Shown here: in pieces, positions 8,777 through 11,897 of the stretch
How positions within the stretch are numbered: the stretch's first letter is position 1
Layout: each line of letters starts with the position of its first letter
NCBI GenBank assembly: GCA_001915995.1
Contig: MNRO01000017.1
Location: 73,402-137,401, forward strand
DNA: 64,000 bases
Source: Clostridium sp. 26_21
Lineage (GTDB): Bacteria > Bacillota > Clostridia > TANB77 > CAG-508
Direction of reading: 5' to 3'
Program-made: the position numbers and the translations under genes
The notes under the pieces: generated by a model
Seen by the model: the letters and a program-made list of their open reading frames with translations, nothing else
Databases searched by the model: none
What the model was told of the DNA's origin: nothing

Positions 8777-10735
8777 CTAATTATTATTATCTTGTTCTTC
8801 TTTTCTTCTTTTTTCTGCTAATTTATTAACATTTGTTTCAACAAATTCAAACTCTTTTCTTGTAGGAGTAATTTGAATAACAGCTGTATCTTGACCTACT
8901 TTTAGTAGTCCTTCACCTTTTGTACATGTAACTAAAAAAGATGCTTCTCCTTCACTAAGTTTAAATACTTCTTTTAATTGTGCAATTTCTGATTTATCCT
9001 GTGCTAAGAATAATTTAGTATCAGATGATGTTAAAACTGCTTGTGCCTCTGGTTTTTCATAGAAATCTTGAAATCTCTGTGATATAATTGCTAATGAAAC
9101 ATTTCTTTTTCTGGCACGTCTTGCCATTTTATTTAAGAAATCTACTGCTTCTGGGAATGGAAGTAACATCCATGCTTCATCAACTATAACTCTTTTTTGT
9201 CTAGCCTTTTTTCTATCTTCACTATTTTTCTTTACAAATTTTTCCCAAATCCAAGACATTAATATTTGTTGAGCAAGTGGTCTTGCAAAACGCTCTTCAA
9301 GCTGTGAAATATCTATATTTATAAGAGGTGCTCCCTCCATTAGATCAAAAGTAGATTGTCCATCAAAATATGCCATCTGCCCATTATACTCTCTTACATA
9401 TTGTTTCATAACTTTTAGCAAATAACTGTATTGGAATTCATAATCTTTATTTGTATTACTTTGTGCACTTTGTCTAATACGCTTATACCAAGAACCAATT
9501 GTTGGCATTTCTTTCTTTCTTTTTTCAAAAACATTACTTGAATTTACATTTTCATATAAACTTGTTGGATTAGCAGTAATTCCTTTTGCAGCATATTCTT
9601 GTGAAACTGCTTCAGCAATTATCTGTTTTGTTAACTCATTTACATTATCTGTTCTAGTACTACCTTTTGCCATTGTCATTAAAGCCTGAGTAACATCCTC
9701 AACTTTACTTTCAACATTTAAAACTTCTCTTTCCCTTCCTGTTATTTCATCTTTTGTTCTTTCAACTTCAATATCAAATAAATTAATAATTGTTTTAGAT
9801 GTTGGGCTAATTACAACATTTATTCCTCCTAATGCTTCAGCTACAATAGAATATTCTCCTTCGGCATCTAATGTTAAACTCTCTATTCCCATCAATACAG
9901 ACGATCTTGAAATCAAAGTTTTCATTGTTACAGATTTTCCTGCACCAGACTTAGCAAATATAACCATATTATAGTTAGTTAATGATGAATGAAAGTTATC
10001 AAACAAAATTGGAACACCTGTCTGTCTATTTATTCCAATTGGAACACCTGTATCATGTCCAATATTTGAAGTGGTAAATGGAAATACTGTTCCCATTGAT
10101 GGTCTATCAAATATGTGTTTTTTCTTTATTTTATCTTCCATTAATGGTAATGCTGATTTAAATCCATCTTCTTGAATTGCCCAAGCACTCCTTATTCCTA
10201 TTAATGATTTTGACATTTCTGCAGTAAGCATTTTAGATAATCTTTCCAAATCTGTTTGGCTATATGCAAATAGTGTTGAAACAATAGATGCTTCATATAA
10301 TTTATTAAATCCTGATGCTATTTCATCTCTTAATTGTTCAGTTTCAAATCTTTTTTGTGCAACTATACTTTCTCTATTAATATTTCCTTTATCACTTGCA
10401 ACAATTCTTTCTGTCTCAAGTTCAGTAATAGTTTTATTAAGCTCATTTTGTGTTGTTGCTTCATCCAATGGTTTTATGTATATAGAGGTATTTATATCTC
10501 CAAACATATATAAAGATCTAAATAGCTCTGGAAATATACATGTTCTAGGTAAACTAGAAACATAAAAGCTTCTTGCATATCTTTTTACATTTGAAATAAT
10601 CTCTAAATGATCAATATTTGACACATCAATTCCAGATGGAGCAATCAATTCTTTTATGCTCTTTTTTCTTAAAATTGTTCTTGATTCTTCTATATTATTA
10701 TTTAATTGCTCATCTTCAGCTTTTTTTATTTTCAT
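8777..10735 (-). CDS. VirB4/TraE/PrgJ-family T4SS ATPase (copy 1)
   Basis: Walker A FAKSGAGKSV, Walker B RVIVDEAWMLL, and a VirB4-type N-domain (LIAPSGIDVS..YARSFYVSSLP). Start placed at ATG 10735 (SD GGAGGA 7 nt upstream) rather than the ORF-track start at 10756. Overlaps the upstream gene by 20 nt. Confidence 0.85.
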   Translation of the reverse strand: MKIKKAEDEQLNNNIEESRTILRKKSIKELIAPSGIDVSNIDHLEIISNVKRYARSFYVSSLPRTCIFPELFRSLYMFGDINTSIYIKPLDEATTQNELNKTITELETERIVASDKGNINRESIVAQKRFETEQLRDEIASGFNKLYEASIVSTLFAYSQTDLERLSKMLTAEMSKSLIGIRSAWAIQEDGFKSALPLMEDKIKKKHIFDRPSMGTVFPFTTSNIGHDTGVPIGINRQTGVPILFDNFHSSLTNYNMVIFAKSGAGKSVTMKTLISRSSVLMGIESLTLDAEGEYSIVAEALGGINVVISPTSKTIINLFDIEVERTKDEITGREREVLNVESKVEDVTQALMTMAKGSTRTDNVNELTKQIIAEAVSQEYAAKGITANPTSLYENVNSSNVFEKRKKEMPTIGSWYKRIRQSAQSNTNKDYEFQYSYLLKVMKQYVREYNGQMAYFDGQSTFDLMEGAPLINIDISQLEERFARPLAQQILMSWIWEKFVKKNSEDRKKARQKRVIVDEAWMLLPFPEAVDFLNKMARRARKRNVSLAIISQRFQDFYEKPEAQAVLTSSDTKLFLAQDKSEIAQLKEVFKLSEGEASFLVTCTKGEGLLKVGQDTAVIQITPTRKEFEFVETNVNKLAEKRRKEEQDNNN

Positions 10736-11897
10736 CTTTTGTTCCTCCTTCCTCATTTTCCTTCTTTTTTCTTCTTACTTTTACTTTTGCATCCTCAGAA
10801 ATATCTTGGTCTAAATAATCTTGATTTTCTGTTATTAATTGTTCTGCCATATCAAATATCAAATTTTTAGCATTTTCTTCTCTTATTCTTACCATCATTT
10901 CCTTATCACTTTTTGCCTCTAAAATTGCTTGTTGCGCAACCTTTACAGCCTCTTCCTCAATTTTTTTATTTATTAACTTCATTTTCTTATCTAACACATC
11001 TGGGGCTGTAGAATATAAAGCTTCAAATCCTGAATTTAATGCTTGTTTTGCGCTAAATACATCTGCATCATCTCTATTATAGGCATTATATAATAATTCA
11101 ATTAATCCTTGTGAATCTAATATTTTAGAATTTACTTCACATCTTGTTAATGTTCTCATCATTGATCTTGCTTTTGTATATAACTCTGAAAATACCATAC
11201 TTTGAATTTCATCTTTTGTGTAATTTTGTGTACTAACTTCATCTTCATAATAAGGTATTATTATATAATATTTCTTATGTAATACATTACTATTTAAACT
11301 ACTCTTTTCTGTATCTGCAATTATATCTTGAGTATACTCAAATTTATTTTTTTCTCTTAAATATTCAAGATATGTATTATATATTTGTTGATCAGTATAT
11401 TCTCCTGGTTCAGCATTTTTCATTTGTATATATTGATTTTGAATAACATTATATTTATCCTGAATATCCCTAAATTTTAACTTATATGATTGAATACTTT
11501 GCTCTAAATTTACTGTTCTTGTTTGTACATATATCTGTATTTCTGATTTTAATGTATTCAAAAACTCTATAAATCCTTGTTCAACAGATGTTCTCTCCAT
11601 ATCTGACATTAAGTCATAGTTTACTCCTTGGCATTCTATTACCATTAAAAATTTACCTTTTTTTTGTATAATCATATTGTCTTCAATTTTTTCAAACTCC
11701 ATAAAATCAAAAATGGAATTAATATTATATGCAACTTTATTTTTGGCTGTTTCTTTTTCTTCTGATTGTTCTTTATTTCCTTTCTTTTTTTCTTTTGCCA
11801 CAATAAATATCCATACTCCTATCAATACAAATATAACAACAACTAAAATTATAGCAATAATTGTTAATATTGAAACTAATTGTTCTGAATTATTCAT
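10716..11897 (-). CDS. TM-anchored protein with a VirB4 N-terminal-domain-like region and a coiled-coil tail; no NTP-binding motif
   Basis: N-terminal TM (LVSILTIIAIILVVVIFVLIGVWIFIV). The segment IEDNMIIQKKGKFLMVIECQGVNYDLMSDMERTSVEQGFIEFLNTL..IQIYVQTR resembles the N terminus of Firmicute VirB4/TraE ATPases. Its ATG overlaps the stop of the PrgI-like gene by 8 nt. Confidence 0.5.
   Translation of the reverse strand: MNNSEQLVSILTIIAIILVVVIFVLIGVWIFIVAKEKKKGNKEQSEEKETAKNKVAYNINSIFDFMEFEKIEDNMIIQKKGKFLMVIECQGVNYDLMSDMERTSVEQGFIEFLNTLKSEIQIYVQTRTVNLEQSIQSYKLKFRDIQDKYNVIQNQYIQMKNAEPGEYTDQQIYNTYLEYLREKNKFEYTQDIIADTEKSSLNSNVLHKKYYIIIPYYEDEVSTQNYTKDEIQSMVFSELYTKARSMMRTLTRCEVNSKILDSQGLIELLYNAYNRDDADVFSAKQALNSGFEALYSTAPDVLDKKMKLINKKIEEEAVKVAQQAILEAKSDKEMMVRIREENAKNLIFDMAEQLITENQDYLDQDISEDAKVKVRRKKKENEEGGTKDENKKS

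What the first reader, a model, noticed from the sequence alone, without database searches (positions are those of the whole stretch)
10716..11897. Stand-alone VirB4 N-domain-like proteins precede the VirB4 ATPase in both T4SS gene sets
Both VirB4 genes (8777-10735 and 37367-39226) are preceded by an ORF lacking any Walker motif. The sequences of these ORFs carry the pattern I associate with the extreme N terminus of Firmicute VirB4/TraE ATPases:
- IEDNMIIQKKGKFLMVIECQGVNYDLMSDMERTSVEQGFIEFLNTL..IQIYVQTR in the ORF at 10716-11897;
- IEKILEKGIIKLKKNKYIKILKVNPINFNLKTQMEKESILNSYKIFLKTC..IQILIQSK in the ORF at 36814-37362.

In locus 1 this protein is 393 aa, has its own N-terminal TM helix and a coiled-coil tail, and overlaps a VirB4 gene that has a proper SD and ATG. 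The split is therefore a genuine two-gene design there. In locus 2 it is 182 aa and is separated from VirB4 only by an A5 run and a frame change, so it could be a second genuine split or a frameshift.

A detached, membrane-tethered VirB4 N-domain could act as a VirB3/VirB4 adaptor.
Basis: partly seen in the sequence, partly recalled or inferred. Interest (0 to 1): 0.5.

Follow-up and report, generated by a model that had tools for sequence, protein, structure and literature searches.

The report
Detached VirB4 N-terminal piece (TrsD-like)
The first part of the type IV secretion motor protein VirB4 is encoded here as a separate small gene in front of a shortened ATPase gene, twice in this window; this is a real and conserved design but an already known one (TrsD / "TraC-like" proteins), and the 393-aa copy adds a membrane anchor and a helical tail.

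Summary

- **Homology.** The ORFs at 10716-11897 (393 aa) and 36814-37362 (182 aa) have no Walker motif. Each lies directly upstream of a VirB4 ATPase that lacks the first ~170-240 residues of a full-length Firmicute VirB4. Evidence that they are that missing piece: curated family models, a natural 849-aa fused homologue, a profile-profile comparison (97% probability) and structure searches (top hits all R388 TrwK/VirB4).
- **Where the cut falls.** In the model of the fused protein, the break lies in a disordered linker between two alpha/beta subdomains of the VirB4 N-terminal domain. It is not at the boundary between the N-terminal domain and the ATPase domain.
- **Genuine two-gene designs.** Locus 1 is split in all 68 uncultured gut Clostridia species sampled and in 12 Saccharibacteria. 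Locus 2 keeps its synteny in a 78%-identical relative, which has a double stop, a spacer, its own ribosome-binding site and an ATG.
- **Prior knowledge.** This corresponds to TrsD of pGO1/pSK41, reported as a remote homologue of the VirB4 N-terminus and abundant next to VirB4 in Patescibacteria. It also corresponds to Pfam PF26593 "TraC-like".
- **What is less ordinary.** The 393-aa form has a membrane anchor and a helical tail. The T4SS genes flank the replication origin, with no relaxase found in the window.

The parts
10716..11897 (-). 393-aa TrsD-like / 'TraC-like' protein: the detached first subdomain of the VirB4 N-terminal domain, with an N-terminal membrane helix and a C-terminal helical tail
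   Evidence: ORF. It is 100% identical to a 'hypothetical protein' of the MAG Clostridium sp. 26_21, and the family carries the precomputed Pfam hit PF26593. hhalign to fused VirB4 N-termini gives 97.1% probability. The top Foldseek hits are TrwK/VirB4. dN/dS is 0.12-0.29 against orthologues.
11799..11879 (-). Membrane helix, about residues 7-33 of the 393-aa protein. A Lys-rich stretch follows it, so the domain is predicted to be cytoplasmic (positive-inside rule, inference).
   Evidence: A hydrophobic window is found in every Clostridia orthologue except the one ORF that is cut in two (L063), and in none of the Saccharibacteria orthologues. The AlphaFold2 model has a helix over residues 4-53. 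Sequence.
11043..11723 (-). Alpha/beta domain, about residues 59-285, equivalent to the first subdomain of the VirB4 N-terminal domain
   Evidence: It aligns with the 182-aa family. hhalign matches residues 51-282 to P0331 residues 12-209. The order of secondary-structure elements matches P0331 residues 22-207.
10719..11030 (-). Charged helical C-terminal tail, about residues 290-393. It is absent from the 182-aa protein; no tail was identified in the Saccharibacteria proteins or pSK41 TrsD either, although in them this was inferred from length and alignment extent rather than tested.
   Evidence: AlphaFold2 helices over residues 300-392, pLDDT 56-79. The tail is conserved in the family alignment.
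8777..10735 (-). VirB4-type ATPase (652 aa from ATG 10735) that lacks the first N-terminal subdomain. Walker A AKSGAGKS is at residue 261.
   Evidence: It matches NCBIfam CD1110 VirB4 model positions 172-730 of 752. The 4AG5 catalytic domain aligns to residues 221-631. It aligns to P0331 residues 251-841 only. Ribosome-binding site and ATG.
11890..12249 (-). VirB3/PrgI-like small membrane protein. Its gene overlaps the start of the 393-aa ORF.
   Evidence: Weak Pfam PrgI hit (E 0.0012, below the curated cutoff). It occupies a conserved position in all 68 Clostridia loci, the same position as trsC in pSK41.
12360..13627 (-). Three tandem VirB2/TrbC-like pilin genes (12360-12731, 12782-13183, 13196-13627)
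   Evidence: Pfam TrbC and T4SS_pilin hits.
268..8679 (-). Three paralogous large polytopic membrane proteins, VirB6-like (5851-8679, 3297-5768, 268-3210)
   Evidence: Weak hits to the pLS20_p028 / Mbov_0396 / MMCAP2_0566 conjugation membrane-protein families and to T4SS_pilin. They lie downstream of VirB4 in all related loci.
36814..37362 (+). 182-aa stand-alone first subdomain of VirB4 (TraC-like / TrsD-like), with no membrane helix and no tail
   Evidence: It matches CD1110 VirB4 model positions 2-167 (E 1e-9), VirB4_CagE positions 6-139 (E 1e-5) and TrsD/TraD (E 9e-5). The 120 closest homologue clusters are mostly about 180 aa and none is longer than 306 aa. It aligns to P0331 residues 22-204.
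37367..39226 (+). Second VirB4-type ATPase (619 aa), also lacking the first subdomain. Walker A GTSGAGKS is at residue 277. Its start codon is uncertain: GTG at 37367 has no well-spaced ribosome-binding site.
   Evidence: It matches CD1110 model positions 177-732. It is 41% identical to P0331 residues 244-844. dN/dS is 0.14 against the L006 orthologue. Junction sequence.
39382..40345 (.). Conserved companions of locus 2: a 194-aa protein of unknown family (39382-39966, +) and an HTH regulator (39983-40345, -)
   Evidence: The same genes lie in the same order between gyrB and gyrA in relatives L006-L009. The 194-aa protein has no confident family hit.
46775..48881 (-). A possible further part of the same machinery: a VirD4-type coupling-protein-like ATPase (47256-48881) and a fourth pilin-like gene (46775-47107)
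   Evidence: Pfam TrwB_AAD_bind and TraG-D_C hits; T4SS_pilin hit. The link to loci 1 and 2 is an inference.

Best explanation
**What it is**
- Both ORFs encode the first alpha/beta subdomain of the VirB4 N-terminal domain as a separate polypeptide. This is the TrsD-like / Pfam 'TraC-like' protein type.
- The ATPase gene that follows each ORF encodes the rest of VirB4: the second N-terminal subdomain plus the catalytic domain.

**How it most likely works (inferred)**
- The two products assemble non-covalently and rebuild a complete VirB4 N-terminal domain.
- In the solved R388 machine, this domain makes the VirB4-VirB4 dimer contact, sits at the inner membrane and is wrapped by VirB3.
- The genes overlap or lie closely adjacent. 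VirB3-like, N-piece and ATPase follow each other directly, which would favour coupled translation and equal amounts of product.

**The 393-aa form**
- Its own N-out/C-in membrane helix is predicted to pin the subdomain to the cytoplasmic face of the membrane next to the VirB3-like protein.
- Its charged helical tail occupies the position of the flexible inter-subdomain linker of fused VirB4 proteins. It may hold the ATPase.

**Shown versus inferred**
- Shown: the homology, the complementarity of the two gene products, the position of the break, and conservation under purifying selection.
- Inferred: physical association, membrane topology and the adaptor role.
For: **The two gene products are complementary**
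- Against the 752-position CD1110 VirB4 model, the 182-aa ORF covers positions 2-167, and the ATPases cover 177-732 and 172-730.
- The fused 849-aa homologue P0331 aligns the 182-aa ORF to residues 22-204 (37% identity, E 4e-31) and the 619-aa ATPase to residues 244-844 (41% identity). It aligns residues 61-136 of the 393-aa ORF to 22-97 (E 1e-8) and the 652-aa ATPase to 251-841.

**Direct homology of the 393-aa family**
- hhalign of a profile of the 393-aa family alone against a profile of fused VirB4 proteins alone gives 97.1% probability, E 5e-11. Query residues 51-282 align to P0331 residues 12-209.

**Structure**
- The model of the fused protein has pLDDT 81.6 and pTM 0.74. It shows subdomain 1 (residues 22-207), a disordered linker (212-239) and subdomain 2 (240 to about 400) ahead of the ATPase domain.
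- That model aligns with TrwK/VirB4 of R388 over 860-890 alignment columns, E 1e-26, TM-score 0.66-0.71.
- The 4AG5 catalytic domain starts at residue 221 of the ATPase.

**Conservation**
- All 68 Clostridia species loci and 11 of the 12 Saccharibacteria loci show separate N-piece and ATPase genes; in the twelfth (L086) the fetched DNA ends just after the N-piece gene. None is fused.
- The 120 closest homologue clusters of the 182-aa ORF are mostly about 180 aa and none is longer than 306 aa.
- The locus 2 relative has TAATAA, a 25-nt spacer with a ribosome-binding site, and an ATG.
- dN/dS is 0.12-0.29 for the 393-aa ORF, 0.45 for the 182-aa ORF and 0.14 for the 619-aa ATPase.

**Comparison with pSK41 and the literature**
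- The gene order pilin - VirB3-like - N-piece - VirB4 - membrane protein equals trsB-trsC-trsD-trsE-trsF of pSK41.
- TrsD is reported as a remote homologue of the VirB4 N-terminal portion, and a TrsD homologue is reported as essential in Ca. Southlakia epibionticum (PMC12102498).
- In R388 the VirB4 N-terminal domain (residues 15-400) mediates dimerisation and VirB3 wraps around it (PMC9259494).
Against: - No physical interaction between the two products was tested or modelled. The structure tool does not accept concatenated or paired sequences.
- The 393-aa model is only moderately confident (pLDDT 67). Its Foldseek E-values are weak (2e-3 to 6e-2), and the output gives no residue ranges on TrwK.
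- The 393-aa protein has no significant direct hit to any curated VirB4 or TrsD model (TrsD E 0.0066; VirB4_plasma E 0.87). Its assignment rests on profile-profile, transitive and fold evidence.
- Similarity to pSK41 TrsD itself is marginal (BLASTP E 0.2; HMM E 4e-4 against five sequences).
- dS values near 0.8 in a 26% GC genome may be saturated, so the dN/dS figures are approximate.
- The function of the tail is pure inference.
Confidence: 0.78

Rival explanations
1. The stand-alone N-piece is homologous to the VirB4 N-terminus but works as a separate regulator or assembly factor. For example, it could be a sub-stoichiometric cap or decoy that controls VirB4 dimer or hexamer formation, or that recruits other partners, rather than being a constitutive part of every ATPase protomer.
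For: - In this lineage the N-piece has gained features that fused proteins lack: a membrane helix and a 100-residue tail.
- The 182-aa copy evolves faster than its ATPase (dN/dS 0.45 versus 0.14).
- Split and fused forms are interleaved among close relatives of P0331, so the covalent link is dispensable.
Against: - The ATPases lack exactly the piece the upstream ORF supplies.
- The genes overlap or abut in every genome examined, which is the usual signature of stoichiometric partners.
- The break falls in a flexible linker.
Confidence: 0.15
2. The split is a frameshift, either a pseudogene or sequencing error, or a programmed frameshift that yields a full-length VirB4. This applies especially to locus 2, where the ORFs are separated by an A5 run and a +1 frame change.
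For: - The open frames overlap only at 37355-37362 (gaaaaataa), and the GTG at 37367 has no well-spaced ribosome-binding site.
- In 61 of the 68 Clostridia loci the ATPase frame has the same +1 offset.
Against: - In the 120 closest homologue clusters of the 182-aa ORF (75-99% identity) the proteins are mostly about 180 aa and none is longer than 306 aa, so none is fused to an ATPase.
- The 78%-identical relative has a double stop (TAATAA), a 25-nt spacer with AGGAAGTGA, and an ATG.
- Six locus 1-type loci (L069-L074) have 14-26 nt intergenic gaps.
- The Saccharibacteria pairs are split as well.
- Of the 150 best representatives of the family, 149 are short.
- Both halves are under purifying selection.
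Confidence: 0.03
3. The upstream ORFs belong to another T4SS family, such as VirB8/TcpC-like scaffolds or an extended VirB3, and the resemblance to VirB4 N-termini is compositional.
For: - The 393-aa protein is bitopic with a cytoplasm-facing charged region, as some VirB8-like proteins are.
- Its direct hits to curated models are not significant.
Against: - No NTF2-like or VirB8 hit was found by sequence or fold.
- hhalign gives 97% probability to fused VirB4 N-termini.
- Foldseek's top eight hits are VirB4.
- A separate VirB3-like gene is present at 11890-12249.
Confidence: 0.02

Closest known systems
TrsD of staphylococcal plasmids pGO1/pSK41 (and TraD of pIP501-type plasmids); NCBIfam NF041427 'TrsD/TraD family conjugative transfer protein'; the MPF_FATA TrsD profile used in CONJScan-type analyses
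   Same: - It is a small protein with no ATPase motif, encoded between the VirB3-like gene (trsC) and a roughly 670-aa VirB4 (trsE).
- The gene order pilin-like, VirB3-like, TrsD, VirB4, membrane protein is identical to locus 1.
[quoted passage not shown]
- The 182-aa ORF hits the TrsD model at E 9e-5 and the 393-aa ORF at E 0.0066.
   Different: - Scores are far below the family's curated cutoff: 22 and 16 bits against 200.
- Pairwise similarity to pSK41 TrsD is marginal.
- pSK41 TrsD (227 aa) shows no obvious hydrophobic N-terminal segment when its sequence is read (no hydropathy scan was run on it), and at 227 aa it has no room for a long tail.
- pSK41 is a conjugative plasmid with relaxases. 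The loci here are chromosomal, flank the origin, and no relaxase was found within the window.
TrsD homologues next to VirB4 in the chromosomal, mostly relaxase-less T4SS of Patescibacteria/Saccharibacteria (Quinonero-Coronel et al. 2025, PMC12102498)
   Same: - The two-gene N-piece plus roughly 610-aa VirB4 design is the same, with overlapping genes.
- Saccharibacteria proteins were the next-best genomic relatives of the 393-aa protein (27-30% identity over residues 70-278).
- Both systems are chromosomal, lie near dnaA and the origin, have VirB2-like pilins plus VirB3- and VirB6-like genes, and often have no relaxase nearby.
   Different: - The host is a low-GC member of the Clostridia, not a Patescibacterium.
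- The Saccharibacteria N-pieces lack the membrane helix.
- This window has two N-piece/ATPase pairs and three giant VirB6-like paralogues.
- No phylogeny was made here, so a specific relationship to the Patescibacteria clade is not established.
Full-length (fused) Firmicute VirB4 proteins of the CD1110 / Mbov_0397 type that carry Pfam PF26593 'TraC-like' at the N-terminus, for example VirB4 of Eisenbergiella porci (P0471) and P0331
   Same: - The two ORFs of each locus add up to one such protein, domain for domain.
- The modelled fold of the fused form superposes with R388 TrwK/VirB4 over 860-890 alignment columns, i.e. essentially its whole length.
   Different: - Here the polypeptide is cut at the inter-subdomain linker (P0331 residues 212-239, disordered in the model).
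- In the 393-aa form, extra membrane-anchor and tail segments have been added.
VirB3-VirB4 fusions and other rearrangements of the VirB3/VirB4 module in conjugative systems
   Same: It is another example of the membrane-proximal part of the VirB3/VirB4 module being repartitioned among polypeptides. The membrane-anchored N-piece is functionally reminiscent of a VirB3-like anchor joined to the VirB4 N-terminus.
   Different: This is a fission, not a fusion, and a separate VirB3-like gene is still present. That such fusions exist is taken from PMC12102498 and was not examined here.

Membership tests
VirB4 N-terminal domain, first subdomain (as found in full-length CD1110-type / TraC-type VirB4) | Sequence homology to the extreme N-terminal ~170-200 residues of full-length VirB4 | tested here: met
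   The 182-aa ORF matches NF045971 positions 2-167 (E 1e-9), NF045975 positions 101-256 (E 1e-9) and TIGR00929 positions 6-139 (E 1e-5). For the 393-aa ORF, hhalign gives 97.1% probability, E 5e-11, to P0331 residues 12-209, and BLASTP to P0331 gives E 1e-8.
VirB4 N-terminal domain, first subdomain (as found in full-length CD1110-type / TraC-type VirB4) | Fold equivalent to the N-terminal part of a solved VirB4 (R388 TrwK) | tested here: met
VirB4 N-terminal domain, first subdomain (as found in full-length CD1110-type / TraC-type VirB4) | The partner ATPase lacks this subdomain, so the two genes are complementary | tested here: met
   The ATPases match model positions 172-730 and 177-732 of 752. 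They align to P0331 only from residue 244/251 onward. The catalytic domain (4AG5) starts at residue 221.
Pfam PF26593 'TraC-like' | A hit to the family HMM at Pfam's threshold | tested here: inconclusive
   Precomputed annotation lists PF26593 for the identical protein P0001, for nearly every listed homologue of both ORFs (all but one cluster, P0165), and unmarked (E <= 1e-5) for P0094. My hmmscan of the local Pfam copy returned no PF26593 hit for these proteins even at E <= 10, presumably because the model is not in that copy, so I could not re-score it.
NCBIfam NF041427 TrsD/TraD family conjugative transfer protein | Score at or above the curated cutoff (200 bits) | tested here: not met
   The 393-aa ORF scores 16.3 bits (E 0.0066; residues 60-150 to model positions 13-108). 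The 182-aa ORF scores 22.3 bits (E 9.4e-5; residues 6-150 to model positions 14-171). They are remote relatives, not members by NCBI's threshold.
NCBIfam NF041427 TrsD/TraD family conjugative transfer protein | Gene position between the VirB3-like gene and a VirB4 of roughly 650-670 aa | tested here: met
   Locus 1 matches the pSK41 order trsC-trsD-trsE. The position is conserved in 68 species. Locus 2 has no VirB3-like gene upstream.
MPF_FATA type IV secretion system (conjugative) | VirB4 of the FATA clade together with VirB3- and VirB6-like genes | tested here: inconclusive
   The best VirB4 models are CD1110 and Mbov_0397, both of which I take from memory to be MPF_FATA-type families. A PrgI-like gene and pLS20_p028/Mbov_0396-like membrane proteins are present, but all of these score below curated cutoffs. 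No VirB4 phylogeny was made.
MPF_FATA type IV secretion system (conjugative) | A relaxase and a coupling protein, as needed for a conjugative element | tested here: inconclusive
   A coupling-protein-like ATPase is present at 47256-48881. No relaxase domain was found in the window ORFs I scanned. ORFs I took to be housekeeping genes (for example mnmE, mnmG, parA, parB, dnaA, dnaN, recF, gyrB, gyrA) were not scanned, and the rest of the genome is not available.

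The most novel reading that the evidence does not exclude
**The reading**
- These uncultured, very AT-rich gut Clostridia carry a domesticated T4SS that is conserved in chromosomal position. 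It has pilins, a VirB3-like gene, a membrane-anchored TrsD-like piece, a split VirB4 and multiple VirB6-like genes directly after mnmG-parA-parB. A second split VirB4 sits between gyrB and gyrA, and a coupling-protein-like gene lies nearby.
- This layout mirrors the origin-proximal, relaxase-less T4SS of Patescibacteria, which is reported to be essential for epibiotic growth.

**What it would imply**
- The system would serve a contact-dependent, non-conjugative function: import or export of DNA or protein with neighbouring cells.
- The split VirB4, with its anchored N-piece, would be a shared adaptation of such 'housekeeping' T4SSs. It could even mark the lineage related to the donor of the Patescibacteria system.
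Probability: 0.2. Interest if true: 0.7.

Novelty: new variant of a known kind. Interest (0 to 1): 0.33.

Why it matters
- **For T4SS mechanics.** The finding gives a clean natural dissection of the VirB4 N-terminal domain. Nature repeatedly cuts it, and re-fuses it, at the linker between its two alpha/beta subdomains. The membrane-proximal first subdomain can therefore be studied as an autonomous module, a handle on how VirB4 docks to VirB3 and the membrane in Gram-positive machines, which the literature read here treats mainly through 3D predictions rather than a solved assembly.
- **For annotation.** Thousands of 'hypothetical proteins' of about 180-400 aa upstream of short VirB4 genes can be named, and short VirB4 genes should not be called truncated.
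- **For gut microbiology.** The wider context deserves a look. A T4SS fixed beside the replication origin across at least 68 uncultured Clostridia species parallels the Patescibacteria system.
- **As a discovery.** The core claim is already in the literature and in the databases.

Tried and rejected
1. **Sequence search of the PDB.** Searches with the 393-aa protein and with a family profile gave only chance hits, so solved VirB4s are too distant for sequence methods.
2. **Local Pfam scan.** The 393-aa protein and relatives gave only spurious membrane-helix hits, even at E <= 10. The scan returned no PF26593 hit, presumably because the model is not in the local copy, although precomputed annotation lists it.
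3. **tblastn against plasmids.** The 182-aa protein found nothing among 72,556 plasmids. I fetched pSK41 by accession instead.
5. **A model of the complex.** I planned to model the N-piece plus ATPase from concatenated, paired sequences.
6. **The TANB77 'conserved pilin' paper (PMC11680825).** I checked it as a possible description of this locus and rejected it. That cluster is a Tad/Cpa pilus, not this T4SS. I also could not verify that the window organism belongs to TANB77.
7. **Guglielmini et al. 2014 (PMC4027160).** The 2025 paper cites it for the TrsD-VirB4 homology, but its main text does not mention TrsD. I therefore cite the statement from PMC12102498 only.
8. **Frameshift or programmed-frameshift reading of locus 2.** Rejected on comparative grounds.
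9. **VirB8/TcpC-like reading.** Rejected.

Full report
**1. What is in the sequence**

The window is about 26% GC and spans a chromosomal replication origin. The GC skew changes sign near 29-30 kb. By ORF length and position relative to the annotated relatives (not scanned here), I read a dnaA-dnaN-recF-gyrB...gyrA run on the plus side and an mnmE-mnmG-rsmG-parA-parB run on the minus side, next to the Pfam-confirmed jag and yidC.

The 393-aa ORF at 10716-11897 (minus strand) is 100% identical to a 'hypothetical protein' of the MAG 'Clostridium sp. 26_21'.

Locus 1 reads, in the direction of transcription on the minus strand:
- three VirB2/TrbC-like pilin genes (13627-12360);
- a PrgI/VirB3-like gene (12249-11890);
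- the 393-aa ORF;
- a VirB4-type ATPase (10735-8777);
- three paralogous VirB6-like membrane proteins of about 820-980 aa.

The 393-aa ORF has a good ribosome-binding site, and its ATG overlaps the end of the VirB3-like gene. The ATPase ATG at 10735 follows GGAAGGAGG and overlaps the 393-aa ORF by 20 nt.

Locus 2 lies in an 18% GC stretch between gyrB and gyrA. It holds the 182-aa ORF (36814-37362), a stop after an A5 run, a 619-aa VirB4-type ATPase from GTG 37367 in the +1 frame, a 194-aa protein and a divergent HTH regulator.

Neither upstream ORF has a Walker A motif, and both ATPases do. The two upstream ORFs are homologous to each other (BLASTP E 9e-12).

**2. Are the upstream ORFs the missing N-terminus of VirB4?**

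Yes, on six lines of evidence.

- *Curated models.* Against the 752-position CD1110-type VirB4 model, the 182-aa ORF covers positions 2-167 (E 1e-9). Its ATPase covers 177-732 and the locus 1 ATPase covers 172-730. The 182-aa ORF also hits the N-termini of the Mbov_0397 and TIGR00929 VirB4 models, and the TrsD/TraD family.
- *A natural fusion.* A search of 1.84 billion cluster representatives with the 182-aa ORF found 1612 relatives. Of the best 150, 149 are short and one is an 849-aa protein, P0331.
  - The 182-aa ORF aligns to P0331 residues 22-204.
  - The 619-aa ATPase aligns to residues 244-844.
  - The 393-aa ORF (residues 61-136) aligns to residues 22-97.
  - The 652-aa ATPase aligns to residues 251-841.
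- *Profile-profile comparison.* This is direct evidence for the 393-aa family, which by itself has no significant hit to any curated model. A profile built only from that family aligns to a profile built only from fused VirB4 proteins with 97.1% probability and E 5e-11. Residues 51-282 align to P0331 residues 12-209.
- *Structure of the fused protein.* The P0331 model (pLDDT 81.6, pTM 0.74) superposes on TrwK over 860-890 alignment columns (E 1e-26, TM-score 0.66-0.71), essentially its whole length. The fused protein is therefore a complete VirB4, and its first 200 residues are part of the canonical N-terminal domain.
- *Database annotation.* Precomputed annotation assigns Pfam PF26593 'TraC-like' to both ORF families and to the N-termini of fused VirB4 proteins.

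**3. Where exactly is the cut?**

The Thermoanaerobacter VirB4 catalytic domain (4AG5) aligns to residues 221-631 of the locus 1 ATPase. The ATPase gene therefore keeps about 220 residues of N-terminal-domain sequence.

In the P0331 model the N-terminal domain has two alpha/beta subdomains of similar topology, at residues 22-207 and 240 to about 400. They are joined by a disordered linker at residues 212-239. The two-gene forms are cut at that linker.

The detached piece is the first subdomain, not the whole N-terminal domain.

**4. Genuine split or frameshift?**

Genuine, in both loci.

- A scan of GTDB species representatives returned 80 loci. My ORF/BLAST table over them shows the following:
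  - All 68 Clostridia MAG species have the order pilins, VirB3-like, N-piece (390-555 aa, apart from one ORF cut in two in L063), VirB4 (645-675 aa where complete), VirB6-like.
  - None is fused, and every intact N-piece has an N-terminal hydrophobic helix.
  - Six of these loci have a 14-26 nt gap between the two genes.
  - All 12 Saccharibacteria loci have an unfused N-piece of roughly 290-330 aa (as called from the first start codon). In 11 of them it is followed by a VirB4 of roughly 605-620 aa (one is cut by the contig end); in L086 the fetched DNA ends just after the N-piece gene.
- For locus 2, the 120 closest homologue clusters (75-99% identity) are mostly about 180 aa and none is longer than 306 aa.
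- A 78%-identical relative keeps the synteny gyrB-[182]-[635]-[231]-[HTH]-[70]-gyrA. It has TAATAA, a 25-nt spacer containing AGGAAGTGA, and an ATG.
- dN/dS is below 1 for all parts: 0.12-0.29, 0.45 and 0.14. These values are approximate, because dS may be saturated.
- The only uncertainty is the start codon of the window's 619-aa ATPase. The GTG at 37367 has no well-spaced ribosome-binding site. Reinitiation after the stop four bases upstream is possible, but that is inference.

Among relatives of the fused P0331, split forms (about 530-710 aa, no PF26593) and fused forms (820-1135 aa, nearly all listed with PF26593) are interleaved. Fission or fusion therefore seems to have happened more than once.

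**5. How it most likely works**

Three points come from the R388 structure (PMC9259494; review PMC12857230).
- The VirB4 N-terminal domain (residues 15-400) alone makes the dimer contact between the 'central' and 'outside' VirB4 subunits.
- It sits at the inner membrane.

By inference, the detached subdomain binds the ATPase's remaining subdomain and rebuilds this platform.

In the 393-aa form, a Lys-rich segment follows the helix. This predicts an N-out/C-in anchor that fixes the subdomain at the cytoplasmic face of the membrane, next to the VirB3-like protein encoded immediately upstream. The 100-residue charged helical tail sits where the flexible linker is in fused proteins. It may grip the ATPase's N-terminus, but this is speculative.

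The overlapping genes suggest translational coupling.

None of these interactions was tested here.

**6. What is already known**

pSK41 has the same gene order: trsB (pilin-like), trsC, trsD (227 aa), trsE (a 672-aa VirB4) and trsF.

Quinonero-Coronel et al. 2025 (PMC12102498) report the following.
[quoted passage not shown] - These T4SSs mostly lack a relaxase and often lie near dnaA.
- A TrsD homologue is listed as essential in Ca. Southlakia epibionticum.

The concept of a stand-alone VirB4 N-terminal-like protein is therefore published, and it is captured by NCBIfam NF041427 and Pfam PF26593.

By NCBI's threshold the two ORFs here are not TrsD/TraD members (16 and 22 bits against a cutoff of 200), and similarity to pSK41 TrsD is marginal. 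They are remote relatives within the broader TraC-like family.

**7. What is not ordinary**

- The 393-aa architecture (anchor, subdomain, tail) is conserved across at least 68 uncultured Clostridia species. The anchor is absent from the 182-aa protein and the Saccharibacteria proteins, and pSK41 TrsD shows no obvious hydrophobic N-terminal segment when read.
- The T4SS genes sit at fixed chromosomal positions on both sides of the origin, after parB and between gyrB and gyrA.
- A coupling-protein-like gene and a fourth pilin-like gene lie at 46775-48881. No relaxase domain was found in the ORFs I scanned.

This resembles the Patescibacteria situation. However, I made no phylogeny and the rest of the genome is unknown, so I keep this as the 'novel case' and not as a conclusion.

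**8. Verdict**

- Both splits are genuine.
- The kind is already known, and the 393-aa protein is a new architectural variant of it.
- Interest is moderate to low for the core claim, and higher for the genomic context.

Noticed in passing
window 45801-48881 (minus strand): This is a third T4SS-related island. It holds a 541-aa VirD4-type coupling-protein-like ATPase (TrwB_AAD_bind and TraG-D_C hits) at 47256-48881, a 110-aa T4SS_pilin-like gene at 46775-47107, and a 290-aa ORF with no family hit at 45801-46673. It lies next to DnaB_2/DnaI-like replication genes.
   Followed up: partly
window 268-13627 compared with L001-L005 and L010-L077: In 13 of the related species loci and in L001-L005, the whole locus 1 gene set sits directly downstream of mnmG, parA and parB, close to the replication origin; the other loci were not informative. 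This suggests a fixed chromosomal system, not a mobile element. No integrase or relaxase was seen in the window ORFs scanned.
   Followed up: partly
window 36814-40345; L006-L009: An 'orphan' N-piece/VirB4 pair, with a 194-aa unknown protein and a divergent HTH regulator, is inserted between gyrB and gyrA. The stretch is 18% GC. There are no pilin, VirB3- or VirB6-like genes beside it. The arrangement is conserved in a 78%-identical relative. What a second VirB4 without its own channel genes does is unexplained.
   Followed up: partly
window 268-8679 (minus strand): Three tandem paralogous giant membrane proteins (942, 823 and 980 aa) each contain a T4SS_pilin-like segment and a conserved C-terminal region. 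They give weak hits to the Mycoplasma-ICE and pLS20 conjugation membrane-protein families. Copy number and length vary widely between species, from 1 to 4 copies of about 400-1100 aa.
   Followed up: no
window 12360-13627; L020, L025, L061, L075: There are three tandem VirB2/TrbC-like pilin genes in the window and up to seven in some relatives. This is in a Clostridia (presumably monoderm) T4SS, a class once thought to lack VirB2 homologues (PMC4027160).
   Followed up: no
L078-L089 (Saccharibacteria genomes): The nearest non-Clostridia relatives of the 393-aa protein found in GTDB genomes are Saccharibacteria proteins of about 290-330 aa, each directly upstream of a VirB4 of about 610 aa. By bit score, the locus 1 ATPase is more similar to these (216-226 bits) than to the locus 2 ATPase in its own genome (143 bits). 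The called Saccharibacteria ORF printed (L080) begins with a long Q/P/M-rich low-complexity region, which may be over-called by my ORF finder.
   Followed up: partly
window 14139-20480 (minus strand): Several genes lie between parB and the pilin genes: a LytTR-domain protein, a GGDEF diguanylate cyclase, an MBOAT acyltransferase with a DHHW protein, and a TMEM164-like protein. The stretch is 18-23% GC. The spacing between parB and the first pilin gene differs between relatives: about 7.4 kb here and in L011, and about 1.4 kb in L014.
   Followed up: no
P0331 model (residues 22-207 versus 240-400): The two subdomains of the modelled VirB4 N-terminal domain have the same order of secondary-structure elements: three strands, helix, strand, two helices, strand, helix. 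This hints at an ancient internal duplication. No structural superposition was done to test it.
   Followed up: no
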